From positions 5,704,001 through 5,768,000 of the forward strand of contig NC_089433.1 in NCBI RefSeq assembly GCF_026210795.1: 64,000 bases of DNA, written 5' to 3'. Position numbers and translations under genes: made by a program. Below, in pieces: positions 3,484 to 49,599 of this stretch. How positions within the stretch are numbered: the first letter of the stretch is position 1; the number at the start of each line of letters is the position of its first letter. The DNA comes from Rhizophagus irregularis (lineage: Eukaryota). The notes beneath the pieces were generated by a model. It had not been told where the DNA came from and searched no databases. It worked only from the letters and a program-made list of their open reading frames with translations.

Positions 3484-5346
3484 ATGTATCAAGCGATCAT
3501 TTTGGGATCCCTTCTGTTTATAACGCTTTACATTTTAAAGCGTAAGCGTGAACCAGAATTGGTAAGATAATTGATTTAAACAGAATTTTATCGCTTTTTC
3601 TCCTTTTACTCAATTTTATTTTATTTTATTTTCTTAGACCATGCCGCCACTTGTTTCTTACAAATTCCCAATTATTGGCCATACTTTTGATTTTTTTTTA
3701 AATCCCGAAAAATTTCTTAAACAATGTAGAGAAGAAGTTCGTATATCAACGAATTTTTTTTTTTTGGCGTAAAAATTCAATTAACGTTAATTATTAATTA
3801 TATATAATAGTATGGTGATATCTTTTGTCTATATATATGGGGTCAAGTGAGAGTATTTGTTGGTATAGAGATTGCTCGTATTTTTTTTTGCATAAATATA
3901 AAATATTTTATATATTCTAATTTATAAATTCTTTTTAATTACTGCACAAACTTGTAGGAAAAGAACATTTTGGTGAAGTATATTCAAGAGATGATGTGTT
4001 TGATGTTTTAAAAGCATTCAACAAACGATTTCCGATAGATGTATTATGTCCAGATTTGCTGAAAGTTTCACCAGTTGCACCAAAAACACTTAAAGACACG
4101 ATCTTTAGCAAATTAAAACTTTATTCTGATCGTATGCAAAAAAGGGTTTATTTATCAACTCAAAAACATTTTGGAGATTGTGATGAATCAAAAATTTTTT
4201 ATAATCTATTTGAAATTGTAACAAAAATTATTTCTGATCCTATTGCAAATATTATTATTGGTGAAGTAAGTATAGATACTTTTTTTTTATGATACTAGTT
4301 AATTTTGAAAGAAAAAAAGTTTTAAAAGAAAATTACTTCTTTTTATAGGAGGAATCACAACATGAAGAAGTTTTAAATTCATTTGCAAACTTTATAATAG
4401 ATAGCATGATATTTTTAACTATTCCACCATTTCTTGATATAATTTATCCAGGACTTCAAGAATATGTTAATCGTATTCAGATAAGATTAGGATTATATAA
4501 TCCAGCAGTTAAACATCGAAAACCACTCCTTAAACATATAGAAAAGCAAGTATGTAAACGTTTACAAGAGAAAGAAAAATATGGTGACTCTTGGAAACGT
4601 CCTGATGATCATCTTCAAGATCTAATGGAAGAACATGATCCTAATAATATTAGTTGTCCGTATCTTTTAGACAGAATATATCTAATCATTTTTGCATCAA
4701 TTCATACAACGGCAATAGCCATTACAAATGTTATTTTAAGTTTAGCATCAAGACCCGAGTACATGCAAGAATTATATGAAGAACAATTAAAAGTTCATAA
4801 AGAAACGAATGTAAATGGCATAATTCCATTTGAAGCTCTTAGTGATATGAAAAAATTAGATAGTTTTATTAGAGAAACATTAAGATTAAGTGTAAATGTT
4901 GCGGGAATTGACCATCTCGTAAAGAAAGATTATACGTTCTCTAATGGATTGCAAATACCAAAAAATTGTATAACTAGTATTTATATTGATGATGTTTATC
5001 GAGATGAACCAAAATCATTTGAACCATTCAGACATTTAGATATAAATGTAGCATCAAAAGTCACTAAAAATTTTTTGACATTTGGAAATGGTAAACACAC
5101 GTGAGTATATTTATGTATATATGTATTGTAGTACAGTAAGTCAACAACTCAGTTATTATTAAATTATTTAGATGCCCTGGAAGACAACTTGCTGTAAATA
5201 ATATTAAATTTTTTATGCATAACGTTATCTTAAAATATAATTTTCGTACAGTAAGTAGTAAAATTGAAGAAAGCAGAGGAACGGGTTTTACGGCATTACC
5301 AGTTGAAACAAGTACTGCTGGTGTGATTTTTGAAAAGAGGGTTTAA
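3484..5346 (+). CDS. Cytochrome P450, complete; exons 3484-3561, 3638-3736, 3811-3862, about 3958-4265, about 4350-5100, about 5172-5346
   Basis: N-terminal membrane anchor, PPLVSYKFPIIGHT, I-helix FASIHTT, RETLR, FEPFRH, heme motif FGNGKHT/CPG across the last intron. Confidence 0.92.
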
Positions 5347-15681: not shown

Positions 15682-17230
15682 ATGGATTACGCTATATTAA
15701 AACCATTTTTTGATCTATTTTCAAGAACACAAATTCAATCAGTTCTTATAGCTTGGCTGCCTACGAAAATAATGCCATACTTAACAGGGATAATAACAGT
15801 AGACATGTTTGCAATTACTGTTATAGTTTCCAGTCTTTCAACATTAACTTACCTATTTCATTCTTTAATATATGATTATTTAATAAGCCACTCAAACGAC
15901 AAAAATTTAATAACAATTCAGATAGATTATTACAATTTAGGAACATACAATGAAATGAATAAAAATATAATTTATGAATCATTGTCATGGCTAATTTCTG
16001 AGCAAACTAAAAAATTAGAAAAGGGCAAATTTATACTTCATTTAAAATAATAAATACAAACATAAGATACCGAACACGACAATTTCTCCAAAAAACAATA
16101 ATGAAATTACTGTTAAGTTCAAAGAAACACATTTTAACTTAATGTACAAAATTTCAGAAAAAAGTAATAGCCATAATGATAAAAACAAAGGAAGTTATTA
16201 TAACGTCCCATTTGTATCAATAGTTAACGACGATAAACCATCGATATATTTTTCCACCTTAAATAATAAAAAAACATGTGTTGGAGAAATTTTGTTGTTA
16301 TTTAATAATATTACTGAAAATTATTTAGAATTTCAAAGAAAAAATTATGGTCGTTTTAGATATGAAAACAATCAATCACAATGGAAACAAATACAAAAAT
16401 TGACTTCTTGCAGAGGATTTGATAGCATCGCGTTATAAAGAGAGGATCAAGAAAAATTATTAAAAAAAGAATTACACGCTTTTATAAACAATAAACATTT
16501 TTATGAAAAAAATGGGTTACCTTACAAGCGGGGTATACTTTTGTATGGAAAGCCTGGAACTGGAAAAACAAGCTTAGTAAATGCAATTTCAGCATATCTA
16601 TCTCGTGATATTTATTATTTAAACCTTAAAATGATTAAAAACGATAGCGAACTGAGTGCAACATTTAGCGCCATACCTTCTAATCAATTAATTGTTATTG
16701 AAGACGTGGATGCACAATCTACGGTTCTTCATAATAGAAAATTTGAAATAAACAGTATCGATAAATTTGTAAATGCAAAGTATATTGATAATAATGTCCA
16801 AAATTTTACAAGTTCTGATTTCAGTTTATCTGTGTTTTTGGCATGCTTAGATGGTCATTTAATTTCTGAGGGTAATATAATTATAATGACAACTAATCAT
16901 ATTGATTTTCTTGATCCTGCTTGCATTCGGCCAGGTCAAATAGACGTTCATTTTAAACTTGGTTATTGCACTCATTATCAATTGAATAAAATGTTCAAAA
17001 ACAATATTAACGAATCAGGAATTCCTGTCAATGTGTTAAAAAATATTAATGAAAATGTATTGCCACCATGTGAAGTTATGGCATTAATGTCATTGTATCA
17101 AAATGAACAAGAACAGGTTGTTATTGAAAATCTCATTAAAATAGCAAACCAATATAACAATAATCATAAAAATATTTGTAAAATAGAAAATATTACCATT
17201 AAAGATAAGAAAAGAAAATGTTCAATATAA
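15682..17230 (+). pseudogene. BCS1-like AAA+ ATPase, intronless, with a frameshift near 16045 and an in-frame TAA at 16436-16438
   Basis: N-terminal TM segment, PYKRGILLYGKPGTGKTS (Walker A), IVIEDVD (Walker B), MTTNHIDFLDPACIRPGQID. Confidence 0.9.
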
Positions 17231-18503: not shown

Positions 18504-19292
18504 TTAATTGCAGCTACTGTCAATATTAAAATCCAAGGTATAATAAGGCAGAAAATCGTCTACGAAAGAAAATGATGTGTTTATTAATGACGGATCTATT
18601 AAGTATGGATCTGTATATAATGAACTAATATAAGTTTGATCCATAAATAAAGACGTATTTCTATCTATTTCCATAAAATCGCATTGTGATGTCATGTCGA
18701 CATCGATTTCCGGAATATTGAAACTTGTATTCGGCATGTTATTGTTTTTACCAATATTGTTTGATTTAATTTCTAACGAATGAGTCGTCACCGAATCATC
18801 CAAAACATTATTTAGCAAATTTCTTTTATTTGTATTATTTGCAATTTTATTTCGGTAAAGAGATCTAACTGGGGAATATTTATAATTAGGATATTCTATT
18901 AAATGAATTTTCTTTGTAATTTGAAACAATCTAGTCCAAAATTGCGATTCACGCTTTGTAACTTTTTCCCATAAACAAGAAGCAATTGCGGAAGTGTCAC
19001 CAACAGACATTTTTAATCCAATTAAACCTTTTGAAATATTTTTACGATACAAAACCCAAGGATTTTGAGGTCTTGGAATAGTTTTTGATCTTGTAGTATT
19101 TGAGGGAGATAATAATTCTTGCAAATTCAGAATTGTTTTAATGTCACTATAATCATTAATTAATTCGATAATCAACGGTTTTATATTGGTATCTAATTCA
19201 TTTAAATTTATTGAATTGGTTTGATCTCGCACTAAGGATTGTAGTTTTTTGATTTTATCTATTCCCAAATTTTTTTTTGTTTTTGTTAACAT
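18504..19292 (-). CDS. MATA-type HMG-box transcription factor, intronless
   Basis: IPRPQNPWVLYRK...SAIASCLW...FW...H..EYPNYKYSP followed by an acidic tail. Confidence 0.9.
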   Translation of the reverse strand: MLTKTKKNLGIDKIKKLQSLVRDQTNSINLNELDTNIKPLIIELINDYSDIKTILNLQELLSPSNTTRSKTIPRPQNPWVLYRKNISKGLIGLKMSVGDTSAIASCLWEKVTKRESQFWTRLFQITKKIHLIEYPNYKYSPVRSLYRNKIANNTNKRNLLNNVLDDSVTTHSLEIKSNNIGKNNNMPNTSFNIPEIDVDMTSQCDFMEIDRNTSLFMDQTYISSLYTDPYLIDPSLINTSFSFVDDFLPYYTLDFNIDSSCN

Positions 19293-19623
19293 AATTAATA
19301 AAAAAATGTCCGTGTAAATTTCTTTATATACTTAATTATTGGCGTTAAATAAAACTCAAATACACATATTTAGTTAATATTAATGCATACTTAATATGCG
19401 TATTATTTATTGTACTAACAATACATAAAATAAAAAAAATTTATTTTATCACATCAATTATATCAAATTAAGTTTGTTTTTATATGAACTAACATTAAAT
19501 GATTAAAAAAATAAAATAATGTTATCTGTTATATGAAAACGCCCAAAATCGAAGTTATTAAATAACCTGTAAATAGGATATTGTAAAGATACAATAATAT
19601 CTATATTAAAAATATTGATGGAT

Positions 19624-23606: not shown

Positions 23607-24419
23607 CTAATTGTTTATTAAAGTAGGATCGATGTAAGAAAAAGTAGGGTCTATTTCCATGATGTCCAAAAATGCTTGATCATTTAATAATGAATCATAC
23701 AAATTTTGATCGTTAATTTTATTATCACATCCGTCTATCGGATCAAAAAGGATTGAATCCGTCTGAAATAGATTTTCATCCAACATTTCGATATCAAATT
23801 CATAATTATAATCAGTTTTTGTATCGGTTATGTCATTGAACATAAGTGAATCTTGACAAAAATTTTCTTCCCCTTTTTTTATATTCAAATCAGAAACATC
23901 CATATCAAAACTGCTTGTATCCATAGGAATGTTTGTTAAATTCGGTTTTAGATTAGGAATTGTGTTTTTGGTTTTTGTATTTTTTAATTTTTTCCTTTTA
24001 TCAGTAAAAGGATGGTATTTGTAATTAGGGTACTCTATTGCGTGTATTTCTTTTGTGACTAAACACAAATCACTCCAAAATTGTTTTTCTTCTTCAGATC
24101 TGATGCTCCATAAATAAGAAGCGATCCCTGACGTTTCACCAACAGTCATGTGTAAGCCTTTTGATACATTTTTACGAAACAAGTCCCATTTATTTTGAGC
24201 TCTTGGAATAGATTTTGTTCTAGTTACGTTAGACGATGAAAATAACTCTTGTAAATTTAATATTGTTTTAAAGTTTTCATATTTATTAATAAAATCGAAG
24301 ATCAATCGTTTTATTTTAGGTTCTTTTATATTTAAATCTAATAATTTTATTTGATCTTTCACAGGAGTACCGATACCTTGTATTTTTTTAATATATTCTT
24401 CAGTATTTTTAACAACCAT
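23607..24419 (-). CDS. MATA-type HMG-box transcription factor, paralog of 18504-19292 (true ATG probably 24419)
   Basis: IPRAQNKWDLFRK...SGIASYLW...EYPNYKYHP; shares the upstream KTILNLQEL motif with its paralog. Confidence 0.9.
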   Translation of the reverse strand: MVVKNTEEYIKKIQGIGTPVKDQIKLLDLNIKEPKIKRLIFDFINKYENFKTILNLQELFSSSNVTRTKSIPRAQNKWDLFRKNVSKGLHMTVGETSGIASYLWSIRSEEEKQFWSDLCLVTKEIHAIEYPNYKYHPFTDKRKKLKNTKTKNTIPNLKPNLTNIPMDTSSFDMDVSDLNIKKGEENFCQDSLMFNDITDTKTDYNYEFDIEMLDENLFQTDSILFDPIDGCDNKINDQNLYDSLLNDQAFLDIMEIDPTFSYIDPTLINN

Positions 24420-25639
24420 TAAGCAAAAAAATAGAGACAATATCTTCTTATATACAAAATATAAAACACTACAAAAACCTGTAGTATTATTTAAATATTT
24501 TGACGTACTTTAACTTTATTCAAAATTATTGTATGTACGCATTATTTAACAATTAATGTTTACAAGAATACAATTAATATTAGAATAAAATAATAATCAT
24601 AATTGTTAACTAGTGGATTGGCGTATCTAAGTATAAACGATAACAAACTGTAAAAGATTTGTTATTTATAAAGTCTCGTTTATTATGTATTGTTATTGAG
24701 TATAATTCGTATTGTAAATAAGTGATATACATTGTTATATGTTTATTAGCCAGACGGATTTATTAATTGTTTTAAATCTATTAGGTATTTGGTTTTTTCA
24801 CAATTTAATTTAAAATTTTTTTCGTATTGTTTAATTGAATAGGTTATATTTTTCAATTTTATATCTATATACAGTACAACAATTTTAATCGTTTTTTATT
24901 GTTTTTACAAAATTTAGCTTTTACCCATGGTTTGATGCTACATAAATCACTAAATATTTATTTATGATATCTATTCTAAATTACGTACAATGATTTAACA
25001 AGATATGCTGCGTACTAATCAATTATAATAATAAACAAGATTTTCTTATTTCGATTTTTTTTTAATTTGTTTGCATCTGATTATGTAAAAATATTATTTT
25101 TTTAAAAATATCATCATTGTTATTATTATTTGGTTTGATATATTTAAGAATGAATTACGAGGGTAAATTGTTTAAATAAAATGGTTCTCTGAACGGACAA
25201 AAAATATATTTAGCGCATTAAAATATAATATATGTTTGGCTAAAGAATTCATTGTTTAAGTTAATTTGTTTGACTTATAGAAAATATTTAAAATTGTAAT
25301 TTTCTATTAGCTTTTCAAATACATTTAATGAAGTCGCTAGGGTTTTTTACTTAGTGTTTGTATTCTTTAATTGACTTTGAGTAACTTGAAATTATTTGAA
25401 TGAACTTAATATTTGCAATAAATTTAGTAATTTTATTTTTGCATTTATTTTTATGCTTCTCTAATTATCATTTTCGATCTTAACTAGATTACAATTAAGA
25501 TCAATAACATTTTATGTTTTTATAAATAATATTGTATTATGTACAGTATTATTATATGTTATGTATTATTTAAGTTTAAATGTATTGTTAAAATTTAATT
25601 TATATAATAAGAAAAATACTGAGTAATTGGATTTTAAAA

Positions 25640-34278: not shown

Positions 34279-37200
34279 TTAATTTATCTTACCCACCTGG
34301 TTCACAACTACTGTAAAATCCAGGATTTCTTTACCAAACAAAATATACTCTTTAACACCCTCCAAGCCTTCATATCTTCTATACATGTTTTCAGGGTATT
34401 GTAAAATTTCTTCTTGCTTCTCTCTACAAAAATTAGAATCAGTTCTTTTCTTATCTTTTTTGTTAATCCCATAATTCTTTTCTATTATTTTCAATTTTTC
34501 GCAACGAGGTAACCAAATATGTTTCTTTGTTTCATCCATAATATATTGTAAAATCTTCGTTCCCAATTCTATTATCTTCAAATTGTTATTTATTCCCAAG
34601 ATACTTCCAATAAAGTTATACAATTGAATCGGGAAAACGCCTTTAATTAAATCTACAAAATTAAACTTATTATCCCTAAATTTTGGAAAAAAGATATCAA
34701 GTTTTTTAATATTTGTTAGTATTTGCACTTCATCAAAAGTAGCCCATATTCCTTTAATAAAGTAACCATAGTATCTATTGTTTGTCCTATTATCTGCTTT
34801 AAAATTTTTCTATTGTAACTACATGTCCACACATGATAGATTAAAGGTTTCTTTTTTCTTGTGACAAAATACACATCTAAAGTTCCGGTAAATATCATAC
34901 GAAGATTTCTTCATTTGTTCAATTGTTGGAATTTCTTCTATCAAACGTTGTATCTTCATTCTTTTTTGTTTACATATAAAATTATCAGTTTTAAAAGTTG
35001 TATCACCCTCTATTTGGAATCCAATATATGCAAAAACAATTTCCCATTTAACATCTAATATTCTATATCTCCAATTTCTATTCAGATTAAAAAATTTTTC
35101 CAATCCTTATATTCTAGTCAGAAGTCTAATAAACCGTCTTAAATTCATCTCTACCACGTAATTATTCCATAAGACTGGGAATTTATAGTGTTCTGTATTG
35201 TATTTAACTAAAGTGTTAGATAGTTTATCTTCTATTTCGTAGCAATCTTTAATTTCTTTATCCATTGTGTTATGTAATTTATTATCTGAGTGAGACTCTA
35301 CTTTAATTACATCTATCTGTTGTGATAATTCATCTAAAATTTCTTTTATATTAAACCATATGGCATTATTTTTGTCAAATTTTAATAGATCCTTTGTAGT
35401 TATTGTCTCCCATCTATTAGTTAGATACCTATAGTTTTTAATTACATTTTGACTGTCTGTATATATTTTATAGTTCTTATCATCCTGTATCATTAATAGT
35501 GCAGTAAAGAAAGCCATAGTCTCTGCTTTTGTTGAAGTCAACCAATGTTCTACTGTCAAAAAGTATTTATCTATGAGATTATCATTTTCGTCATATATCA
35601 TAACCCCAAAAATTGACTTAATATATTCTGTCTTGTTTCTCTTAACTGATCCATCTATATATATAGATATATTCTTTGAATTATTTAACGCTATCCTATC
35701 CTTAATGCAATATTGTATCTACTTCTTTTTTCCAGATTTTTGTTGACATTATCTGTTTTATCTCATCTATCATCATATAGAATCAGGTCTTTATTATCTA
35801 GTCTTTGTTGTATAATATTATATCTAAATGCACTATCGTATCTAAGTATCTCATCATAGAAATTAACACTGACCCCTTCATAATAATAAGTACAATTTTG
35901 TAATCTTTTTGAATGATGTTGTTTATTCCATCTATATGGTGATAATAAAAATACCCTTTCTATATGTTCCACGATTAAACAATTACTTTTAATTTCTCCT
36001 TTGAATACATCTGCATTAATTATCCCTAACTCACAACCTTTACACTTCCTTAGGATTATATTTTTTTCATAATCATCTGTCAAGTTTTCAAAATGATTAA
36101 AAAATACTACATTATTATCCCTATCTATTTTAATAATTCTTCCAAAGATTGTTCAATTTTGTGAAACTCCTCTAGTCATTTTTGAAACAACTGTTGCTCC
36201 TTTTTCTGGTAAAACTGTGGTCGGCAATAGAATCGTCCCTTTTAAATTATAAACTTCGTCTACAAATAAAATTTGTTCAACAATATTTGGTTTAATTCTG
36301 TAACTTATCCTAGAGACTGCTAAATCTGCCAATATATTCTCATAAAGTTTTCCATTCTTTTTTGACATTCTTTTTGTATTTAAAAGTTTAACAAATCTCT
36401 TCATTTCTAACTCTTCAATTGATAGTAAATATTTTTTATCCAGGGTAGTGATTTGATCCACAAAGATTAAATTATTATCTTGTAATGTCTTAAAATTCTT
36501 AATGTATACTCCATTTGATACAACGTCTCTAATCAATGTTGGTCCACCTTCTACATTAAATTTAATCATAATATTATCATTTCTTGCAAATTTAAAATTA
36601 TTTTCTATTAAAAGTTTTATGTTGTTTAAGATAAAATGGAATTTAAATCCAATATTTTTAATCTGCTTAATTTTATGAATTAACTTTTCATCAATAACAT
36701 ATATCGGATGGTTTTCTAAAAGCAATTGTTGTTGTATGTTGATAAATCTAACTTCCATTATTTTTCCCAGAATATCTGTATCATTAACCTGTAAAACAAA
36801 GTTTGTAATTTTGGCTTATTTTTGATTGGCAACTAAGTTATTCAAATTATAAATAAAATGAGTTTCTAAAATCGCGTTAGGTGCAGTTTTCGCAAATTTC
36901 AACCTATTTTTAATAAATGATCTGAAAGGAGCCATTAATCTTTCTAATATTCGTTCTTCTATGACATATAGTTGACTTCTATATTCAACTATTGGAATAA
37001 TTAGCATATTGAAAAAATAAATCATCATCTTATCAGTAATCCCTTTTCTACAAGATATATTCTTTATTATTGCTTTGATTTCGTTCCTGATTTGTTGTTC
37101 TACATGTCTATTATCATTAAAGGCATTTATCCAAACTCCTAAAAATCGTGATGATTGGTTGCAAGCTGTTGGCTTACTAACTTCTATTTCATCCTCTCCA

Positions 37201-40016
37201 AATTTAATTTTAACTACACTTTCTAAAGGCTTCTTTTTACTAACATTTTTCCTAAGGAGTAATTCTGATTTTTGCTTATTAATTTTTATGTCATTTAATC
37301 TATAGAAAGAATCAGCTATTTTTAAAATTCGTTCTAAATTTAATTTGTTGTTTGTGATAAATCCCGTATCATCCATATAAGCACATTCTGGAAATGTAAC
37401 TAATCTAGAGCGATACACATTTTCGTATACATCCAAATATTCTTTTGCTTCCATTCGAAATCCAAGATTTGTATTTCTTATTCTTGCTAGTAAGGGGTCG
37501 TAATATATTATCCAAAGCAATGGTGATATTATTTCACCTTGATCAATCCCTGTTAACATATCAAAAGGCTCGGTCAATCCTGTTGGAGTAAAGACTTGAT
37601 TCGTCCTATTTGTGAACAATCCTGTCAGAATTTGTGTTATTCTCTTTGGCATTTTTATTCTTTCGAGCGCCTTTCTTAGCATTGGTATATTAATTCTATC
37701 GTAAGCCTTAGACATATCCAACATAAGAAACCACATTTTTTTTTTATTTTGTTCTGCATAGTTGATAATTTCATTAACTATCCTTAAAGGTTCAAAAGTT
37801 GATTTCTTTGGGAGTCCTGCAAATTGGTATCCTTTTAAAATATCGTTAGTGGTAAAAATTTTAGAAAGTCTATTTGTTAGTATTTTAACAAAAAATTTCC
37901 TTGCAGTTTCTAAAAGTGTAATTGGTCGTGTATTGTTCAAGTCGTATTGCCATGGCTTGGGTTTTGGTATCGGATATATATGAGCACGAAGTCAATCTTT
38001 TGGTAATGTTCCTGTTTCTAATATTTCGTTAAATATTTCTTGAAGGATTTCTTTTAAGGGTATCAGAGTAAGCTTTATATCTTCATAAGAAATTCCTGTT
38101 GGACCATTTGCTTTTTTTCCTGGTAACATTTTTCCTATCTCAATTATTTCTTCCAAAGTTATAGGAGCTAAAACACTATCATATGTTGATTCAGATAATT
38201 CTTCTTTTGGCCTATATTCATCAATCCATTCAGCTGGAATTTCTTTTTCGCAATTTATAGATCCTGCACAATTCTGGAAATGATTTGCCACTAACTTTTT
38301 AATTTCTCCTTCATTCGTTACTAAAATATCTTCTCCATCTTTATCTTGCACTATTAACCTATCTATATTAATTTTTTTGAATTCCCTTTCCATAACATTA
38401 TCGATCATATGTCTTTGATTGTATTCTAAATCCTGTTGTCGCTTAGCTATTGCTTCCATAATCTTTTGTTCTTTCCTCTTTATCATCTCAGTATTCAAAA
38501 ATATATATGCTATAGAATATAGTTCTTTCATTTCCTTCAAATATGTATACTTAAGAATTTTTCTAAAGTTATAACTTAACACATAAAATTCATTATTAAT
38601 TTCTAAGGCTTTAATCATAGAGCGTAAATTTTTGATTATAATTTTCCAATTGTCTTTAATCATTGCAAATTTTTTATCTTTTTTTAGACTCCTTCTAATG
38701 TAAACTATATATCTATAAAATCTATATTCCAATGTATTTTTGATATCTTGATCTTCTTTTTCAAAAGATATTTTAATTTCGCTATGTTTTATATGGCTTT
38801 TCTTTGTTATAGAAATCACATGGTTATAAATATTCCATTTCTCTTCTATATTACTAGGTTTATAATTTTTTAACCTATTTTCTAATTCCTTAGCAGCTGT
38901 GTCAGTGATCATCTGTTTATCATCATCGTTTAATTCCTCATAGTAATATTTTATTCTATAAGATCTTTTTATTTTGGTTGGTAGTGATGGTTGTGAAATT
39001 ATAATTCTTCTGTTTAATCTAACATATATTAGCTTATGGTCAGTATCCATCCTATTATATTCTACTATATTTGTTTTTATTACTGCATTATAAAGATTAT
39101 TTGTCATCCATATATAATCAATACGAGAGAATGTGGCATAATTGCTAAATGTGCTAAAGCGTTCCATTAGTTGCTGATCATCTATTTCTAAGGAATCTTT
39201 ATGTACATCTATAAAATCATGGTTTTCCAGATATTTAAAAATACTAAGTTGATTGTCTATTCTAACGCCTCTATTTTTTAATTTTTCATATTTAGCATAT
39301 CTAAGGTTGAAATCTCCTAATAGCATTGTCTGATATTGATTCCTTCGTGTATCTTTAATCATATTTATCACTAATTGATTAATAGTTTGTTGTAAATTCC
39401 TTGCCTCAGTTGAATTACCACTTTTATTGTATATTGATATTATTGATAATTTGTTGTGTTTGCTAAAATTAAGATTTATTTCTAATATTCTTCCCATATG
39501 ATTTTGAACTTTGGTTACGTGATTTGCTATATTATTTTTAATAAAGACTAAGAGTCCTGTACTATTAATATTGGTATTATCTATTGTTCCAAACATCGTA
39601 TAATTTTTGTTAATTCCAACTTCTTGCATTAAAAATTTTCCATATTTAATATTAATTTTTGTTTCAGTAACCGCTAAAACATCAAAATTATATTTCGTTA
39701 ACACATCTTTAATATTCATCATTTTTAATTTTGTCATTCCTCTAATATTAAGAGTTCCCATATTGAAAAACGCTTTTGTATTATTTACTACATTTGTTTG
39801 ATTAATGTTATCTTCTAATTCCTCATTCAAAATATTATCATTATTATTATTATTAATAGTATTATTATTTTTATTGTTCTTTTTTCTTTTAATTCTTTTT
39901 TTGTAATTACGTAAATGAACAGGATCGTCACTTTTTCTTTTTTCATTATTGCTAGTTAGGGGGGAGTTATATATATTCAATTGATTTGAAATATTAGTAT
40001 TTTGGTTGTCTATCAT
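34279..40016 (-). pseudogene. LINE ORF2 polyprotein with several stops and frameshifts
   Basis: APE motifs TLNIRG, VTETK, LGDFN, RIDYIW, TDH; RT motifs RPITLLE, LDMSKAYD, GIDQG, YMDD, FLGVW; RNase H motifs IYIDGS, KAE, IYTDSQ, KVESHS; CVFC...HVWTC. Confidence 0.93.
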
Positions 40017-41718
40017 AATTAAATGTTGTTGTTTGTTGAAATTGAAGCATTGTTATCCCCCTTAATAACAGTGCTTTTTTGTTTTTTATTTGTGTTATTT
40101 TCTTGATTATCATATATTTGTTCAAATTTAGTACTCATATTTTGTAACATGTCCATCATTTTTTTCATTGTATCATCAGCTTGGTTCATTCGATTTGAAA
40201 GAATATAAACATTATTAGCAGCGTTACTTTCTGAACTGCTGCTTTCTTCATTTCTAGTACGTTTGTTATTACTATTAAAAACTACTCCTCCTCTTTTTTT
40301 ACTTTGATTTTGATTTGTATTTTTTGTTGTATCTTTAAGATTTGGGTTACTATGAACCTTAATCAAATTAAGCTCATTTCTCATCGCCGCTTGTTCTTTA
40401 TACATACAATCCATCATATCTTTAATTTTTCCAAAGTCATTTTTAATATCCTGTAAGTTATTGTTAGTCTGTCTATGATACCATTCTTCTTTTTCTTTAT
40501 CTTTCATATGTATTGAACCTCCTTTCTGAGTACCATGCAAAACATCACGTGATCTTACATTTGGCCGCGTTTTAGGTAGTTCATCCCATTCATGCATTCC
40601 TACTTCATTCATAATAAAATCTTTTTCATCATCAAAAGAATTTCTATTATCATCATCACCTCCATATAAATCATGATTTATATTGTTTCTATTCCAAGAT
40701 CTATCTACATACCTACCATTCTGATTACCATCTCGCGCATTATCAGCATAATAATCTCTTTTTCTAAATTTTCTATTACCCTGTGCTACCATATGAGCAT
40801 ATGTAGCAGGGTTACTATAATTGTTTGCTCTATTTCTTGTAAAACGATTTTGACGAATCTCTTTAATCTGTCTAAAATATTCATTCTTTCTCATTGGTCT
40901 TGTACGAGGGGGCATATAATCACAGTCTCTTATATAATGGCCTGTATATCCACATCTAAAACATGACTGCACACTGGGATCTGACCATTCAGTCTGTTTG
41001 TTTCTTACTAAAAAAATTTTTTGAGTAGCAGCAACCATCGCTACTTCGTCTTTAAAATATACATAAGTATACTTTTGTGTATCATTAGTATATGTATTCC
41101 GAGGAATATAAAATTCTACAACGCTATGATGATCTATAAATTTTTTAAATTCTACAGCCTGTGCATTAGGGGGGAGTCCATTTAACTTCATACAAAATTG
41201 CTTAAGTCCTTCTTTAATATTTTTATCCATTAAAAATGGAGTAACATATAACATTTCGCCATAGACCCAAAGCACGTGATTATCATAAAATCGATGAACA
41301 CTATTAGCATCTTTGAAGGTAATATAAACTACTTGGCGATTTGGTGCATATGCATGAGGCCTTCAAGAATAACATTTCTCTTCTTCTAATTCACTATATT
41401 TACGCATAAAGGGTTTAATTATAGTAGTAGTCAAACGAAGTGATGCATTAAATACTTGTATGACCTTATCTTGCGAATTTCCATTATTTTGTTTTTGTCG
41501 TATACGATTTGTTATAATCTCTTCAAAAAAATAATCTATACCATCACATCGATAAGGAGTTTCTTGTAAATCTTTCCATGTTTGTTGAGAGATTAATGTT
41601 GCTTGTAAAGAAATTCCTGTAATAATCTTATTAACTTTTTTTTGGCTATCATTCATTTGTGTAACTGTTCCTTCTGGAACTTTTTAAGTTATAATTTGAA
41701 CTTGAAGACTAATAATAT

Positions 41719-44700
41719 CGAGGGGTGAGGGGGGCCAACTTATTTGTTGTGTAACCAATGTATCACCATCATAACTGTCCACCCCTGAATTTTATACCGA
41801 TTTTTTTTTTGTTATATAATTATAATATCAAAAAAATATTCCAAGCCTACAACTTGTAATATACAACGTTTCTAAAAGCCGATGTTTGAGTATAGATTAG
41901 CACACTTGAGAACTGTTTAATACCAAAGTTTCATAATCTTTGGTGCATTATTGGCTTTCTGGTTAGTTCAAATATGGTTAATTAAGGGTTTTTGTGTAAT
42001 TAATTTTTTTTTCTCGGTTAGAAAATTAATAAAACAAACAAATTTTTTTAGTTGTAATAATTTTTTTTATTATATTTATTCGATATATTGTTTACATTTT
42101 CACTATTCTATAGAAATAGTTTTTTTTTAAGTGCTTCATCAGTAAAAGATGTCCAGTTTTTTAAATTGGAAATAATTATAGGTACCAATTTTTGTTTTTT
42201 TTTATATGGCGTTGAAATTCCGAATGCCCATATTAACCACAATAATTCTGATACTAAAAACATCTTGGTGAATGAATCTTTTGCTTCTTTAAGCTGCACC
42301 CATAGCCTAAGTTGTTCCAAAGCGTGAATAGGATTAGAAGGTAAATTACCCTTCTTCATGAGAGAAGGTTTTTTATTTTCTGTTGTAGAATAACTTGAAC
42401 GCATTGTTTTCAAGTTTTCTCTTAAACTTGCAGTACCTTTTTCTGGAATATAATTGTTAACTTCTCTGCACGTTTTTTGACGACTTCTCATGTAGATTGA
42501 GATACATCGTTCATAAATAAACCCAAGTTCATCATTTTCCAATTCGACATTATTATCCATTGATGATTTCAAAATTGTTACAAACATTTGGTTCAGAGGT
42601 GAATTAGAAAGGAGACTATTCGTCACATAGCGTAAAATGTTTGGTCCTAATTCATTACTTTTTTTAAACATTTCGATTACTAAAGATTTTAAATAATACA
42701 TAAAACGAATGAATTCAGGTCCAGGTATAATGTTGGTGGTCTGTGATTTTGTTTCTGTCACATATTCAACCTTTTCTGTACGGAGAGCTTCAAGTAAAGT
42801 GCGCATAATTGAAAACTTTGGATGGGAATTCATTAAATGGTCTCTTTTAAGTAATTTAAATAGTACCCAGCCAATAATATATGAAAATTTTAATGATTCC
42901 GCTTGATTTAAGGTAATGATATCCCTAGGAGTTAATGTGGAATCTGCACGTTCTTCTATATTTCCATTTTCGTGATTATTACCTTTAAATGTCTCGTCTA
43001 TTACTTTGCGAACAAGAAAATAAGCAACTAATCTTTGTGTTGTTGTAGTAGAATGATTTTGTATAATAACCTCTTGAAATTCCAAAAACCAAATGCCGGA
43101 ACACAAATAATTATTCAAACTAACTTCCAGTTGAGTAATCCATGTAGGTGACCAAAGTTTTCCCTTTTTTTTAGGAATTAATTTTAAAACAATATTTTTA
43201 ATATTATCGTTCCATTTTTCTAATAAAGAAAAAATTCTATTATTATAGAGACATGAATTAAAGAACTGCTGGCGCTCTTTTTGGAAAAATGAGACCTTTT
43301 GATTTAATTGATTAATATCTTCACTGAAAGATAATGTCTGAATTTCAATTCTTCCCATAAACAGATCATCTAAAAGAAGAGCTTTAAAAATTTTTTGTAC
43401 AAAAGGTGGCATATTGGATAATTGTGTAGTACTACTTAATAAAGTAGAATGCATACTATTATTCTTTGACATTTTAATTCTATAATCGCTTAATTTAACA
43501 AAAAAAAAAAAAATTAAATTATTTTCATTTAAATACAAATATTAATTTAAAAACAACTTACTATCTAGTAAGATAATCAAATTCCATTCCAGTTTGATTT
43601 GCTTTTCCGTAGTTAACACTTTGTAATTCAGAAGTCATTCTTGCAGTGACCTGAAATTTATTTAATGCATGTCCGTATCCTTTTAATATCTGTGTTGATG
43701 AATCACCTCCAAGCTGTCGAATTGTTCCAAATAGTCCTTCTAACATATCTTGTGATACTCGGCGTGGTTCAATAGTTGAATTTGGATGCAAGGTGAAAAT
43801 CTCTTTTGTCATTCCCAAAAAACCTTGGATAGATAAAAGTAAATCAAACTGGCACTGTGATGAAATCCAATTTATTGCACTGATTTTTTGATGATCTCTA
43901 ATTACAAACCAATCATAAATTTTTTTTAAGGTTTGGAGACGAGAATCTGCAAGACCTTCTAAGGGCTTTTTACTATGAAATATTTGCCGGTATAGACATG
44001 AATAATGTACAAATTCCTATATTTAAATAAAGGTTAATATTAATTAAGATACTAGTAATGTTTATTTTATTTAATTACCCTTGTTCCTGTTGATATTTCT
44101 TTAAGTTCATCAATTAAATTCATTGCATTTTCAACATCCTTGGATAGAGTATGTTCAGCAAGATCAACTCGCATCTTGCTCCATGAAGTAAGCCAAATAT
44201 GACGTTTGGTAAGTCGGCTAATTCTTGCTGTTGAATTTTGAGCAGTATACTCATAAACACCTTGGATATGACGCCAACTGACTTCTTTTCCATCTATCAT
44301 AATTTCTCTAATATTTCGACCTTGACCTTCTCCAATGTGACTTTTTGAAAGATTATTTCAAAGTTTTTTGAAAACGTGTGTGGGATCACTAATAAAAAAC
44401 CATGGTATACCAGTAATTGGATTTATTGTTTTATAATTTGTCCAATGTATTTGAGCATCATAAAGAGGTCGAACATTCATATCTTGAGATACAACTGCTA
44501 CTTTCCATCCTTCTTTATTAGAAGAAATTGTAACGTTAAACATTTGTGCTTCAAGGTCAACATTTGTAATAATAGCTGTATGCCATTTATTATCTTTAGG
44601 ACTTTTAAATTCACACAAATCATTAATATTCCAATTCTGTTTAATAGGCATTAGTTGCCTTAATGAGCTGCGATTAACTTGAAGTTCACTAGAAATGGAT

Positions 44701-47229
44701 GAATCTAATAATTGTACTGTAAATTTGCTACGATCAAGACTTGTTGCTATAATTTTAGCACGTTCATAATTATTTTTTCCAATATCAACTTCAACAATAT
44801 CCCCTAAAGACCATGAAAAAGCCCACCAGTCAAAACTTTTGATGTGATTCCTATTTTCTCCAGCACCATCACAAACAGATCCATAAGTATGAATGCCAAT
44901 ACATTCAAGATTTGCCGCAAGTTGAAAAAGTATTTTATTAATTTCGTGTGCATCAAGAGTATTAATTCCATAATATGCTATAGGGTATGCAAAGTTATAA
45001 GTAGCTGAATGCCAAATAATTTGATGCACTTGTGTTGCTAAATCTCGGTTATTATCTTTCAAATTAGGTAAGTTGCTTGTGTTTTCCCCTTGCAGCTCTT
45101 TTTCACATTGTATTATAAATGATTGTAATTCTTCTTTCTCATTTTCAAAATCCAAGTATCCAACATAACGATTATCCCGCTGACTCCAAAGTAAACCTAT
45201 TAAATATTAAACAAGTAAATAAATTCTTTTTAAATATACAATTTGGTAGCAAAACTAACCTTTTTGAATTTTAAAAGAGTCGTGAGAAAAAAATCCAATT
45301 CGACCATGGTTACCAATATTTTCTACAGCCATCTTTTCTAGTATATGGTATGCAGTTTTAATCTGCCATCCTGAGCATTGTTGGCTTTCATTTATATAAT
45401 TTTTTATTGTAGATACTGAAGGTAATCGCATAATACCTTTCATCGCTTCATAAGCAGTATTGCCTGCCCGACTATACACAGAAATAGCCCATCGCAAAAA
45501 CCTAAAGAAATTAAAGTAATTTATTATTATATAATTTAATTAATTGTATTTTTTTACACTTACATTGGATGATATCTCACTCCATTTACTTTTCCACTTT
45601 GGATTCTAATTAGTTCTTGAAACATCGGATTAAAGGAAGAAAGATCAACTTTCTTTTCTCTAACATCACGAGCTACTTTTTTGGCTATTTGACCTAGCTC
45701 TTCTGATACTACTTCTTCCTCCTCTTCTACCTTTTGTTGAAGCTGAAGTTGTAAATTACGTATTTTTTGTTCCTGACTTGTAATTTTCTTTAAAATAAAC
45801 AAATTAATATTAGTTTCTTATTTTTTTAAATTAACATATTTTATCATAATAATTACCTTTCTTTGAATTTGAATTTTTTTAGACAGAACTTCTTGAGAAG
45901 CATGAGCAGACTTGAAATGTAAAGTATCCATAAAATTTCGATTTTTGATTTTTATTAGCGTATCCTTCAATTTTTGACAATTTTTGCACACATTTGTTTC
46001 AGTTACTAACAAATGACAGTCTATTCTCCTATAGGCTTCTTGAGGTTGATTTTGGTTCTCCAGGATAGCAAATGGTTCGTGAATATTATTAGAATTTTTT
46101 TGATTCCTCACAAGATGAATTCCGCGAAGTTGAACCACTTTTTCGAATCCTAAAATATAAAAATCTTTTTTAAATTAATATGTAAATTAAAATTAAATTA
46201 ATAATAATTAAATACCTTCAGTCTTTTGTCCTGTGCATATTTTCGTCATAGATATATAATGAATTATCCTACTTATCTCCGAAATGGTTCTTTCACTTGT
46301 AATTCCTGTTTCTATTCCATTTATTTCTTTGACACTTTTTTTCAAGACGTATAACTCATAAGAGATTAAGTTTTTTTGCCATTTAATAATTAAATACTTT
46401 TCTATTTTCTGTTCTTTTCCAAAAAATGTAACGCCAATCCCATTAATAATGTCTCTTATCCCTACACCAAAAAACTCTGTCTTTATTAATGATGTAACTT
46501 CTGCAATATTGATCGAATCACAATTTTTCCAATATGAACTTTGCTCTGTTCTTAACAACGAAGCTAAATTGGAACCAGAAGAGTTTGGTTCAAAAAAAAT
46601 TGTAGCAAGTGCCGATCGTTCACCACTAAATATTTTTCTAACTTTAAGAAATTTTATCCAAGAACCAAAAGTACCAAATTTTTCGCCTGTTTTTTTATCA
46701 AAAACATAAAAAATCTTGTCTTGTTTGTCATAAATCAAGAGCCCCTCTCTATATTGCTTTTTTCTGTAAAAAAAATAAACTGGCTTTCCGTTAAATTTTG
46801 GCTGAAGACGGTACAAATCTTGAAGGGCTTCGAGATGCTTAGTTTTTTTGATACTTGAGAAATATTAACTTCACTTAATACACGTTTCTAAAAATATAAA
46901 AAAAGAATAAATCAATAAATATATTGGTAAAAAGGCTTAATTTGTACTTTTTTTACCATAATTACTGAATTAAAATCGCCGATGGAGTTTATTTTTTCTC
47001 AGAGAAGCGCGTCTGCAATTTAAAGTACTTGTATATGCTGAGGAGGATCTGATAGGTATCACGTTTTAAAGGATGGCATGTTGGCTTAGCTAATTTTTTT
47101 AATTGCAGGGGTTTATTGTAGGCGGATCAATGCATTTTTATAATAATGTATATGAATTTTATATGTAGGACAGTTTTGTTGATTAGGAATATTATTGTGT
47201 AACCTTAAGTTGGCCCCCCTCACCCCTCG
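41719..47229 (-). mobile_element. P-superfamily (THAP9-like) DNA transposon inserted in LINE ORF1
   Basis: Perfect 24-bp TIR CGAGGGGTGAGGGGGGCCAACTTA; 7-bp TSD ATAATAT (41712-41718 and 47230-47236); excision rejoins ORF1 as ...EDII|SLQVQ. Confidence 0.92.
42108..47080 (-). pseudogene. Multi-exon P-element-type transposase with premature stops (5' end approximate)
   Basis: VRYHPM/F.RWA, LPSVSTI, FSHDSFKIQKG, VCDGAGENR, FFISDPTHVFKKL*NNL, KMRVDLAEHTLS, SQDMLEGLFGTIRQLGG; GT-AG introns between the ORF-track fragments. Confidence 0.85.
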
Positions 47230-48220
47230 ATAATATCTTCTTGTTTAAGCATAGAATCTTCGAGAATACTATTTTGTACAATCTTCATAAACTTTTTATA
47301 TTCATCAATATTATCAGAGCTGTTGATCGGCACTTTAAGTATGGCAATGATTTTATTATTTTCTAATTTATGAAATTGATTAGTGTCGTCATCTTGCTCA
47401 TCTATAATCATTTCTATATCGGGTAAGATAACTTGCTGATTGTTTACAATTTGGTCATTTGATGTAATATTGTTATGATCGACAGATGTTTAACCAATAG
47501 CAGAACTAGATGTTTGTTTGTTAGATACATCATTATTTACGTCTAGATTTTGGTCTGTTGATTGGCCCGCTGTGTTTGTACTGACTTTTTTGGACGAAGA
47601 GACCAAGAATACTGGTGACGACGTATTTTGTAAAACTTGATTATTGGTATTAAAACTAACTTATTATTTCTTTTTACAAAGTTCACGTCTGCTAGAAGCC
47701 TCTTTAGGTTCTAGCGGTTCATTTATATTAGTTTGCAGAGGAGTAACAATATTGTCAGGTTCCTTTTTTTTTTGAAGAAACTACAGGGCCACCGTCATTT
47801 TTATCTTGGACCAAGTTTTTGGCCATTTCTGAACAAGTACGTTGTGAGAGAGGGGCGTTGGCGTCGCCATATTGTTCATATCAAAAGTAATTTCAACAAA
47901 GCCTGGGTACAAAGAGCTAAAATATGCCAGTTTTTTATAAACACTTTTCTTAAAAATTTTGGTAAATGACAGGAGCAGTTTTTTCAAATTCCCCTGATGA
48001 TTAAATTATTATTAACACCATTATAATGTTTAAATGAAAAAACAAAAATAAATTTGGAATTCAATTTGCTGATCAGATTAGATTTGGTATGAAAATTTGT
48101 TGATCCTATTTTTGGTATTAGCAATTTGATTGGCCAATGTTAGTTTGTTATTATCAAAATATGGGCATGATTTGCACAATTTTTTTTCCGGAAGTATTAT
48201 AGTACTTATTAATAGTACTA

Positions 48221-48268
48221 GACAGGACAGGACAAGACAAGACAGGACAGGACAGGACAGGACAGGAC
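48221..48268 (+). repeat. (GACAG)n microsatellite
   Basis: About 9 pentamer units. Confidence 0.95.
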
Positions 48269-48696
48269 ATGGACAGAACTCTTAAACCACAATTTTGTGA
48301 TTTAGAGCTTCCTGTGGTACTTTTATGTCATATTAAGTTTAACCATCAAATTGTAGGTTTTTTGGTAGAATTTAATTTTGTTGATCATTTTTATTTACTG
48401 AATTTAAAAAAAAACATTTCAATCGCAAATTCACAATTCATTATAACAAAAAAAAAAAATTTTATTTTTTAATAATGTTGTGTTAACATGTAATAAGTGA
48501 TTAATAAAAAAATATTTTGAAACATTTTTTAATTATTTTAACAAAAAAAATGTTGCAAAACCATTTTTTATTAATAAAAAAAACAGTTTCGCAACATTTT
48601 TTAATTGTTTTAATAAAAAACATTGTGAAACTGTTTCTTTAATAATAATTTTATAAAAAAATGCAAAAAACATCGCAAAAATGTTTTTTATTAGGT

Positions 48697-48985
48697 CCAT
48701 CACTCCTTTCGTCTCCCATCACTCTTTTTCGTCTCCCATCACTCCTTTTCATCTCCCAACACTTCTTTTTGCCTCCCATCACTCCTCTTCATCTTTCCAT
48801 CACTCTTTTTGCCTCCCATCATTCCTCTTCATTTTTCCATTACTCTTTTTCGTCTCCCATCATTCCTTTTCATCTCTCATCACTCCTCTTCATCTTTCCA
48901 TCACTCTTTTTGTCTCCTATCATTCCTTTTCGTCTCCCATCATTCTTCTTCATCTTTCAATCACTCCTTTTCGTCTCCCATCACT
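48697..48985 (+). repeat. Minisatellite of about 20-21 bp (CCATCACTCTTTTTCGTCTC-like); may belong with the GACAG tract to one non-autonomous element at about 48217-49050
   Basis: About 14 degenerate pyrimidine-rich units. Confidence 0.85.
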
Positions 48986-49149
48986 GGTCATTTTTTTTTA
49001 CAATAACTTCCACTTAAAGATCTTTCAAAATTATGTCAAGCTCCCTCATGAAAATGACCTCTTGTTATATTAAAAAATAACAATACTATAAATTAAAAAT
49101 ATAAATAATTATATAATTCCAAATTCTTGGATTAAAAAATTTTTTATTT

Positions 49150-49599
49150 TTAATATTTGCGATTTATTAGTAATTTCTTTTTTTTTCTGTATTCGCGATT
49201 TTTAAGGTTTCTCATAACTTTTTTATATTTTTGAAGCGGATATAACTCTTCATGTTCTTTTTTAATTTTTATTGATTTTTCAATATATGGCAATTTGTTT
49301 TCTTTTGTCGTGTTATTCCACATATTTCCTATTATTTTCGACAATTCACGAGATGTAGTGTTGGGATATTTTAATTTTACAAGTTTAAATATTTCACTTT
49401 TAAATAAAATAAATGAATTAGGTGGTTTTTTTGTAAGTAATTCAAAATCATACAAAACATAAAGTGGTACATTTATGTTATTTATTCTTTTAATGGCTTT
49501 TTCAGAATTTTTGAATAACGATTTATTAATAAGAACAGGTATATAGTCATTTTGAATATAAAAAATATCCTTTGTATTATATAAATTAAATAAAGACAT
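49150..49599 (-). CDS. HMG-box protein (SOX/TCF/MATA type), intronless
   Basis: KKPPNSFILFKS...YPNTTSRELSKIIGNMW...KLPY...KKEHEELYP..KY followed by a basic tail. Confidence 0.92.
   Translation of the reverse strand: MSLFNLYNTKDIFYIQNDYIPVLINKSLFKNSEKAIKRINNINVPLYVLYDFELLTKKPPNSFILFKSEIFKLVKLKYPNTTSRELSKIIGNMWNNTTKENKLPYIEKSIKIKKEHEELYPLQKYKKVMRNLKNREYRKKKKLLINRKY

What the first reader, a model, noticed from the sequence alone, without database searches (positions are those of the whole stretch)
44440..44830. Tandem Tudor/Agenet-like modules inserted inside the P-transposase catalytic core
Seen: between VCDGAGENR and FFISDPTH lie two similar beta-rich units, WSLGDIVEVDIGKNNYERAKIIATSLDRSKFTVQL...VNRSSLR and WNINDLCEFKSPKDNKWHTAIITNVDLEAQMFNVTI...MNVRP. 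Known: this linker is much shorter in typical P/THAP9 transposases, and the pattern fits Tudor/Agenet folds, which read methylated histones. Inference: a chromatin-reading DNA transposase that may target heterochromatin, consistent with its insertion into a LINE.
Basis: partly seen in the sequence, partly recalled or inferred. Interest (0 to 1): 0.75.

Follow-up and report, generated by a model that had tools for sequence, protein, structure and literature searches.

The report
Fungal transposase with built-in Tudor pair
A cut-and-paste transposon family of mycorrhizal fungi carries two extra domains, predicted to fold like histone-reading Tudor/Agenet domains, inside its catalytic core; most copies, this one included, lack the pocket for methylated histones, so the pair likely grips DNA, chromatin or a partner protein in another way.

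Summary
A 129-residue insert (44436-44822) lengthens the stretch after the second catalytic Asp of a P-type transposase from 33-48 residues (relatives; Drosophila 36) to 161. It models as two Tudor barrels (pLDDT 86); the best structural matches are plant tandem Agenet H3K9me2 readers (Foldseek E 3e-6; Z 11.1). It marks one transposase clade of arbuscular mycorrhizal fungi and is under relaxed purifying selection. The element (41719-47229; 24-bp TIRs, 7-bp TSD) sits in a LINE; this copy has a frameshift and a premature stop, while a relative is intact. The histone-reader reading is not supported for this copy: neither barrel has an aromatic residue (F/W/Y) at the four cage positions. A complete cage occurs in 0 of 72 second barrels and 3 of 72 first barrels, all in one sub-lineage. 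One insertion into a LINE in a repeat-rich genome says nothing about targeting. Best reading: a captured, mostly cage-less tandem Agenet module that likely tethers the transpososome without reading methyl marks. I found no paper on a Tudor-bearing DNA transposase; a 2025 paper calls a Gypsy retrotransposon the first Tudor-bearing TE. New variant of a known kind.

The parts
41719..47229 (-). P-type DNA transposon, 5511 bp, defective copy
   Evidence: TIRs and TSD; contigs of 4 of 4 runs join 41711 to 47230, skipping 5518 = 5511+7
41719..41742 (.). Terminal inverted repeat, 24 bp perfect
   Evidence: relatives start C[TG]AGGGG
47206..47229 (.). Terminal inverted repeat, 24 bp perfect
41712..41718 (.). 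7-bp target-site duplication, left copy
   Evidence: empty-site joint
47230..47236 (.). 7-bp target-site duplication, right copy
46216..46886 (-). Exon for the N-terminal beta-rich domain (no Pfam or Atlas match); one base missing in an A-run near 46850 relative to L001; a tiny upstream exon with ATG at 46959 is inferred
45857..46149 (-). Transposase exon
   Evidence: GT-AG borders, conserved in L001
45564..45787 (-). Transposase exon, helical, coiled-coil-like
45260..45501 (-). Transposase exon with first catalytic Asp (HDSF, about 45279-45281)
   Evidence: aligned FDEM motif of relatives
44079..45196 (-). Exon with RNase H N-part, second catalytic Asp (CDG, about 44868-44870), the Tudor insert and the start of the GTP-binding domain
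   Evidence: Pfam PF21787 E 3.6e-11, PF21788 E 3.4e-8
44655..44813 (-). Tudor/Agenet barrel 1; cage positions I/E/L/S
44466..44633 (-). Tudor/Agenet barrel 2; cage positions S/H/I/N; invariant Trp on strand 4
44358..44360 (-). Premature stop (TGA where L001 has CGA)
43562..44016 (-). Exon with RNase H C-part and catalytic Glu (SQDMLE, about 43738-43740)
   Evidence: PF21789 E 5.6e-4; P0031 aligns to 6P5A here
42108..43488 (-). Last exon, about 460-aa helical C-terminal region, no Pfam match
35110..41711 (-). Host LINE downstream of the insertion: rest of ORF1 (RRM, CCHC knuckle), endonuclease, RT, RNase H; broken by stops
47237..47600 (-). Host LINE ORF1, 5' part, in frame with 41363-41711 across the empty site

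Best explanation
This is a P-type cut-and-paste transposase of arbuscular mycorrhizal fungi with a 129-residue insert in its RNase H core that is predicted to fold as a tandem Tudor/Agenet pair and, lacking the methyl-lysine cage here, likely acts as a mark-independent tether to DNA, nucleosomes or a host protein during target capture. Shown: insert, position, family range, cage residues, element ends. Predicted: the fold. Inferred: (1) one ancestral capture of an Agenet-type module into the loop between the helix after the second catalytic Asp and strand 5; (2) by RNase H topology (own knowledge) that loop lies at the sheet end away from the active site, so the pair would project from the transpososome without blocking catalysis; (3) selection keeps the barrels, their Glu/Arg interface and the Pro-rich linker, but not the pocket, so any binding would use another surface. 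This particular copy is defective and would need transposase from an intact relative.
For: Fold: Foldseek top hits AGDP3/ADCP1 tandem Agenet, E 3.3e-6, TM 0.54-0.65; VIA Z 11.1, rmsd 3.3 over 121 residues; single barrels to TDRD3 Z 9.8, rmsd 1.6 and SMN Z 9.5, rmsd 1.7. The pair is again confident (pLDDT 80-92) in a 987-aa relative. One origin is not ruled out: 47 family rows form one side of a branch, SH-aLRT 100, on flanks with the insert removed (quick tree). Named carriers: Rhizophagus, Glomus, Diversispora, Acaulospora, Gigaspora, Dentiscutata, Cetraspora, Entrophospora, Paraglomus. Spacing 152-169 in 38 of 50 family proteins. Constraint: dN 0.09 against dS 0.26-0.43 versus L001; median dN/dS 0.43-0.45 over 33 pairs. 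L001 has an open 1467-codon spliced frame with the insert. Strand-1 Glu 60 of 60 and 49 of 50, terminal Arg 52 of 60 and 45 of 50, spaced like the FXR1 ionic lock E6/R47, E65/R112 (PMC2970552 passages). No cage. Precedent for Tudors that bind DNA rather than methylated tails: ARID4A (PMC8038949 passages) and Rad9 (PMC2034471 abstract). Conserved Lys/Arg at 5 barrel-1 and 5 barrel-2 columns.
Against: No binding was tested. Constraint is 2-3 times weaker than in the core (0.14-0.22), which mere folding could explain. Entrophospora copies keep only barrel 1 (spacing 111). The full-length model failed in the RNase H core (pLDDT under 50), so the insert's place relative to DNA rests on topology, not on a model. 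Cage positions were read by sequence register to SMN/SPF30, not from a superposition.
Confidence: 0.5

Rival explanations
1. Structural passenger: a Tudor pair landed in a tolerant loop, lost its ligand, and persists because it must fold and exact deletion is rare.
For: Pocket residues vary between clades (I/E/L, F/H or Y/Q, L/Q or K/L). dN/dS 0.43-0.45. Barrel 2 is absent in Entrophospora. Most invariant residues are core or interface positions.
Against: Kept across the named genera of several orders with synonymous sites near saturation (dS above 1 between clades). Surface Lys/Arg/Asp and an invariant strand-4 Trp (50 of 50) are conserved. No clean loop-only family member was seen: short forms examined keep the tail of barrel 2 or lose core residues too.
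Confidence: 0.3
2. Methyl-mark reader steering insertion to heterochromatin. The window's lineage would need a non-canonical pocket, for example Tyr/His on strand 2 with the invariant Trp on strand 4 of barrel 2.
For: Closest structures are H3K9me2 readers. A sub-lineage from Dentiscutata, Cetraspora and a metagenome has F-Y-Y-(C/F) in barrel 1 (P0056, P0060, P0163). 42 of 72 first barrels keep Phe at cage 1, and 46 of 72 have Tyr/His at cage 2. The insertion is in a CpG-depleted LINE (o/e 0.66-0.74 against 0.85-1.5 elsewhere in the window).
Against: Window copy 0 of 4 aromatic positions in both barrels; 0 of 72 second barrels have more than one, while ADCP1 loses binding when two cage residues of barrel 2 are mutated (PMC6318295 passages). 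The caged sequences are nested deep in one clade, not basal. The CpG depletion covers the LINE and the element itself and may postdate insertion. One site is no sample of targets.
Confidence: 0.15
3. The insert is a separate nested sequence or a retained intron that is spliced out, not part of the transposase.
For: Some public gene models skip part of it (P0011, P0019, P0023, P0054).
Against: In frame and stop-free in the window, in L001 and in most relatives. Codon-level constraint. GC and coding style match the exon, unlike the six 62-73-nt AT-rich introns.
Confidence: 0.03

Closest known systems
Drosophila P element transposase (PDB 6P5A) and THAP9-like/P transposases of sponge and amphioxus
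   Same: Split RNase H with DDE triad, GTP-binding insertion domain, TIRs, multi-exon gene (PMC7776569 passages). Nearest named insert-free relatives are from Sycon and Branchiostoma.
   Different: A second insertion of 129 aa before strand 5; 7-bp rather than 8-bp TSD; 24-bp rather than 31-bp TIR; no THAP match; a long unassigned C-terminal region.
Plant tandem Agenet readers ADCP1/AGDP1 and AGDP3; FXR1/FXR2/FMRP tandem Agenet
   Same: Predicted two-barrel arrangement (Z 10-11), Glu/Arg pattern and Pro-rich linker.
   Different: About 18% identity; the barrel-2 Y/W/F cage is S/H/I here; embedded in an enzyme's catalytic domain.
SMN/TDRD3/SPF30-type Tudor
   Same: Best sequence match of barrel 2, ungapped to SPF30; rmsd 1.6-1.7.
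   Different: Four-residue aromatic box replaced by small or aliphatic residues.
Chromovirus integrases and Ectocarpus Gypsy-10_Ec32 (C-terminal Tudor)
   Same: A transposable element's DDE enzyme fused to a Royal-family fold (PMC12477816 passages; PMC12477314 passages).
   Different: Those are LTR retrotransposons with a terminal domain; this is a DNA transposase with an internal tandem pair, mostly without a cage.
DNA-binding Tudors ARID4A/B and yeast Rad9
   Same: Tudor fold without methyl-tail binding; the proposed working model.
   Different: Those have a shown basic DNA-binding surface; here the net charge is neutral and binding is untested.

Membership tests
P superfamily DNA transposon | Split RNase H DDE core of P type | tested here: met
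   PF21787 E 3.6e-11, PF21789 E 5.6e-4; HDSF, CDG, SQDMLE located; relative P0031 hits only 6P5A, E 5e-4
P superfamily DNA transposon | GTP-binding insertion domain after strand 5 | tested here: met
   PF21788 E 3.4e-8, above cut-off
P superfamily DNA transposon | Terminal inverted repeats and a target-site duplication | tested here: met
   24-bp TIR, 7-bp TSD. L001 and L009/L010 have TIRs but non-matching flanks. That 7-bp TSDs occur in the superfamily is recalled, not from a call.
Canonical Drosophila P / THAP9 clade | 8-bp TSD and 31-bp TIR | tested here: not met
   7 bp and 24 bp against PMC7776569; not filed in this clade
Canonical Drosophila P / THAP9 clade | N-terminal THAP domain | tested here: inconclusive
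   No Pfam match at E up to 1 for the N-terminal exons; no Atlas hit; a divergent zinc site is not excluded
Royal family Tudor/Agenet fold | SH3-like beta-barrel, here in tandem | tested here: met
   (Atlas: Tudor_3/Agenet clusters at 0.90-0.91, low recognition value)
Tandem Agenet (ADCP1/FXR type) | Strand-1 Glu and terminal Arg in both barrels, Pro-rich linker | tested here: met
   against PMC2970552 and PMC6318295; matched by spacing, not by superposition; single Tudor repeats show the same Glu/Arg pattern
Methyl-lysine reader (ADCP1/AGDP1 type) | Three-residue aromatic cage in barrel 2 | tested here: not met
   S/H/I in the window; 0 of 72 distinct second barrels complete
Methyl-lysine/arginine reader (SMN or 53BP1 type) | Aromatic cage in barrel 1 | tested here: not met
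   I/E/L/S in the window; complete in 3 of 72 distinct first barrels, one sub-lineage
Methyl-lysine reader (ADCP1/AGDP1 type) | Acidic peptide-binding cleft and binding to modified H3 | not testable with these tools
   No model coordinates or histone partner available
Heterochromatin-targeting transposable element | Insertions enriched in H3K9me/5mC chromatin | not testable with these tools
   No whole genome held; relatives' flanks are 0-700 bp

The most novel reading that the evidence does not exclude
A family of cut-and-paste transposases with a chromatin reader built into the catalytic domain, the DNA-transposon counterpart of chromoviruses. The Gigasporaceae sub-lineage with a full F-Y-Y cage reads a methyl mark, the large clade with Phe and Tyr/His reads the unmodified H3 tail (as barrel 1 of AGDP1 does), and cage-less lineages have switched ligand, so natural variants differ in where they insert.
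Probability: 0.2. Interest if true: 0.82.

Novelty: new variant of a known kind. Interest (0 to 1): 0.56.

Why it matters
Reader-fold fusions are described for retrotransposon integrases, and a 2025 paper (PMC12477816) calls a Gypsy element the first TE with a Tudor domain; I found no report for a DNA transposase. The family shows that the P-type RNase H core tolerates a 130-residue two-domain graft in a loop that other members keep short, which is of use for transposase engineering. It supplies natural caged, half-caged, cage-less and single-barrel variants to test whether a DDE transposase can choose targets by chromatin state. It also places full-length, apparently intact P-type elements in mycorrhizal fungi, where a fungal survey listed P elements only as single occurrences (PMC5751038 table).

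Tried and rejected
No whole genome is held, so no copy census or target map. phmmer of the insert alone against PDB sequences gave no Tudor hit; the family profile gave TDRD1 E 0.049 and SPF30 E 0.29. A profile search for a cellular donor found only family members plus two weak Tudor proteins at E about 0.2; Atlas neighbours were bacterial Tudor/Agenet clusters, a lead only; the donor is unknown. P0111 against PDB gave only an unrelated VHL-like match. The full-length AlphaFold model did not resolve the RNase H core, and its Foldseek list held only Tudor-type and spurious rows. Expression: no RNA holder listed; contigs of 8 runs laid in two calls showed no joint at the predicted introns that can be read as splicing; no conclusion drawn. 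Joints inside the insert (44441-44583, 44633-44825) are 'between: not known' and were taken as divergent paralogues. The empty-site contigs differ from the window by 8+11 letters, so they are probably other LINE copies: they fix the TSD length, not an insertion polymorphism. TSDs were not recovered for L001 and L009/L010 (0 of 2 distinct loci; assembly chimeras possible); 11 junction 7-mers show T at position 2 in 8 and A at position 6 in 10, which fits a palindromic 7-bp target (L010 and one window end dropped as duplicates). The careful tree did not finish; the quick tree used 57 of 80 rows (23 under 150 aa dropped, among them the window's own and P0056) and has long outgroup branches; a FastTree on 73 rows gave the same groups. 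Cage counts rest on barrels that a motif pattern could read (61 and 54 of 94 sequences; 72 and 72 distinct texts). dN/dS used 9 sequences, 33 of 36 pairs, not independent. Literature: no relevant paper in searches 19 (0 papers), 20, 56, 59, 63, 91, 105; 'Tudor' occurs 0 times in PMC11075540, PMC5751038, PMC8647823 (main texts only, supplements not read). Repbase and subscription journals were not searchable. Earlier scan findings: none. No complex prediction was sent.
Full report
Observation. Pfam places a P-type RNase H N-part before the insert (PF21787, E 3.6e-11), a GTP-binding insertion domain after it (PF21788, E 3.4e-8) and a sub-threshold TUDOR match inside it (E 3.7e-4). The distance from the second catalytic Asp to the Asp of DPTH is 161 residues. 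It is 33-48 in nine distant P-type transposases returned by an unbiased phmmer (two named as Sycon, one as Branchiostoma) and 36 in Drosophila 6P5A. The insert is 129 residues, 44436-44822.

Fold. AlphaFold2 on a 26-sequence alignment gives two beta-barrels, mean pLDDT 86, pTM 0.72. Foldseek ranks plant tandem Agenet domains first (7YTA E 3.3e-6; ADCP1 6IE5-7; TM 0.54-0.65), then ZGPAT, SGF29, UHRF1, 53BP1, FMRP. An independent aligner over 48,161 chains gives 7YTA Z 11.1 (rmsd 3.3, 121 aligned), FXR1 Z 10.0, TDRD3 Z 9.8 for barrel 1 and SMN Z 9.5 for barrel 2. The barrels stay confident in a 987-aa relative whose core did not model. Sequence agrees: phmmer pulled multi-Tudor proteins through barrel 2, and shuffle controls gave 0 and 1 of 1000.

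The element. Perfect 24-bp TIRs bound 41719-47229 with a 7-bp duplication. Contigs in 4 of 4 runs join 41711 to 47230, skipping 5511+7 bases. The host is ORF1 of a LINE with endonuclease, RT and RNase H, read through in frame at the empty site. Six GT-AG introns give about 1450 codons with all three catalytic motifs. This copy has a premature TGA at 44358-44360 and lacks one base near 46850 relative to L001. L001, 83% identical in DNA, has the same introns and an open 1467-codon frame. Two other full-length loci lack matching flanks.

The family. All named insert-bearing homologues are from arbuscular mycorrhizal fungi of nine genera; the window is most like Rhizophagus records. 38 of 50 family proteins with both motifs have spacing 152-169; Entrophospora copies have one barrel (111); the other short forms I looked at keep the tail of barrel 2 or lose core residues and look like deletions or gene-model skips, not checked at DNA level. 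On flanking sequence alone the family is one side of a branch (47 rows, SH-aLRT 100, quick tree) with four sub-clades. The barrels are constrained but less than the core: median dN/dS 0.43-0.45 against 0.14-0.22 (33 pairs of 9 sequences).

The cage. ADCP1 binds H3K9me2 with Y301/W306/F323 of the second barrel and loses binding on double mutation (PMC6318295 passages; PMC6208443 passages). I set the register from the ungapped alignment of barrel 2 to SPF30 and from hhalign. The window reads I/E/L/S and S/H/I/N; all 24 control repeats from three multi-Tudor proteins have four aromatics, and four repeats of a fourth protein, P0111, have one. Across distinct barrels, aromatic counts are 0/1/2/3/4 in 27/24/18/2/1 first barrels and 0/1 in 20/52 second barrels. 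The three complete cages (P0056 Dentiscutata, P0060 Cetraspora, P0163 metagenome) belong to one nested sub-lineage, so the cage is either retained there or regained. What is kept everywhere is the strand-1 Glu and terminal Arg of both barrels, as in the FXR1 ionic lock, the Pro-rich linker and a Trp on strand 4 of barrel 2. From residue numbers in PMC6208443 (E45, F48, Y53 of barrel 1 contact H3K4 and H3A7) I infer that the large Phe/Tyr-His clade keeps that half of the AGDP1 surface; this was not superposed.

How it likely works. The module sits in a loop that, by RNase H topology (own knowledge), is far from the active site, so catalysis can go on, as the intact L001 suggests. Without a cage, methyl-lysine reading by this lineage is unlikely (0.15). 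Tudors that bind DNA instead are known (ARID4A; Rad9), and a transposase has use for an extra grip on target DNA or nucleosomes, so I favour a mark-independent tether (0.5). A folded passenger remains close (0.3), given neutral net charge, relaxed constraint and the loss of barrel 2 in one lineage. The LINE insertion is not evidence of targeting: about half of the R. irregularis genome is repeats (PMC11075540 abstract), repeat density differs little between compartments (18.2 against 18.9 per 10 kb; bioRxiv 10.1101/2021.08.12.456011 passages), and n is 1.

Comparison and novelty. It is a P-superfamily element by core and GTP-binding domain, but not of the Drosophila P/THAP9 type (7-bp TSD, no THAP match). 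It has the fold of ADCP1-type readers but fails their defining test. UniRef labels a few members 'Agenet domain-containing' automatically, so the domain is visible in databases, but searches found no paper on it, and three papers on fungal or Rhizophagus TEs never mention Tudor in their main text (supplements unseen). PMC12477816 (passages) states that a brown-algal Gypsy element is the first TE with a Tudor domain. Papers were seen as passages (PMC6318295, PMC6208443, PMC12477816, PMC11075540, PMC5751038, PMC7776569, PMC8647823, PMC8038949, PMC2970552, PMC12477314, bioRxiv 2021.08.12.456011) or abstract and outline (PMC2034471).

Verdict. Real, family-wide and apparently undescribed architecture; fold confirmed; histone-reading and heterochromatin targeting not supported for this copy and open for one sub-lineage. 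New variant of a known kind, interest 0.56.

Noticed in passing
window 47223-47411 and P0008: A public R. irregularis gene model fuses the LINE ORF1 piece (100% identical) to the transposase exons, an annotation artefact of this nested insertion.
   Followed up: partly
window 35110-47900: LINE with RRM/CCHC ORF1 and endonuclease-RT-RNase H ORF2, broken by stops; CpG o/e 0.66-0.74 over 36001-48000 against 0.85-1.5 in the rest of the window.
   Followed up: partly
window 46216-46886 and 42108-43488: N-terminal beta-rich domain (pLDDT about 80 in a relative; weak similarity to the N-terminus of insert-free P0099) and a helical C-terminal region of about 460 aa have no Pfam match.
   Followed up: partly
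P0030, P0031, P0034 (Entrophospora): Single-barrel version of the insert.
   Followed up: partly
P0038 (Glomus cerebriforme): Gene model joining the tandem barrels to a DUF659 (hAT-related) domain; a chimera or nested elements.
   Followed up: no
L009 1-5690, L010 1-5526: Clade-II elements with longer TIRs (about 35 bp, CTAGGGGTTAG...) and identical flanks; L010 is 164 bp shorter; flanks share a 12-bp inverted word outside the TIRs.
   Followed up: no
P0067, P0079, P0115: Unnamed proteins with 4-13 fully caged SMN-type Tudor repeats; P0079 also has a helicase domain.
   Followed up: no
window 48211-48274 and 48696-48991: Short tandem repeats: a 5/10-bp GACAG array and a 20-bp pyrimidine-rich array.
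   Followed up: no
window 4349-5101, 16439-17227, 49153-49599: Cytochrome P450, AAA ATPase and HMG-box genes; ORFs at 18507-19331 and 23610-24509 look related to each other by eye and have no Pfam match.
   Followed up: no
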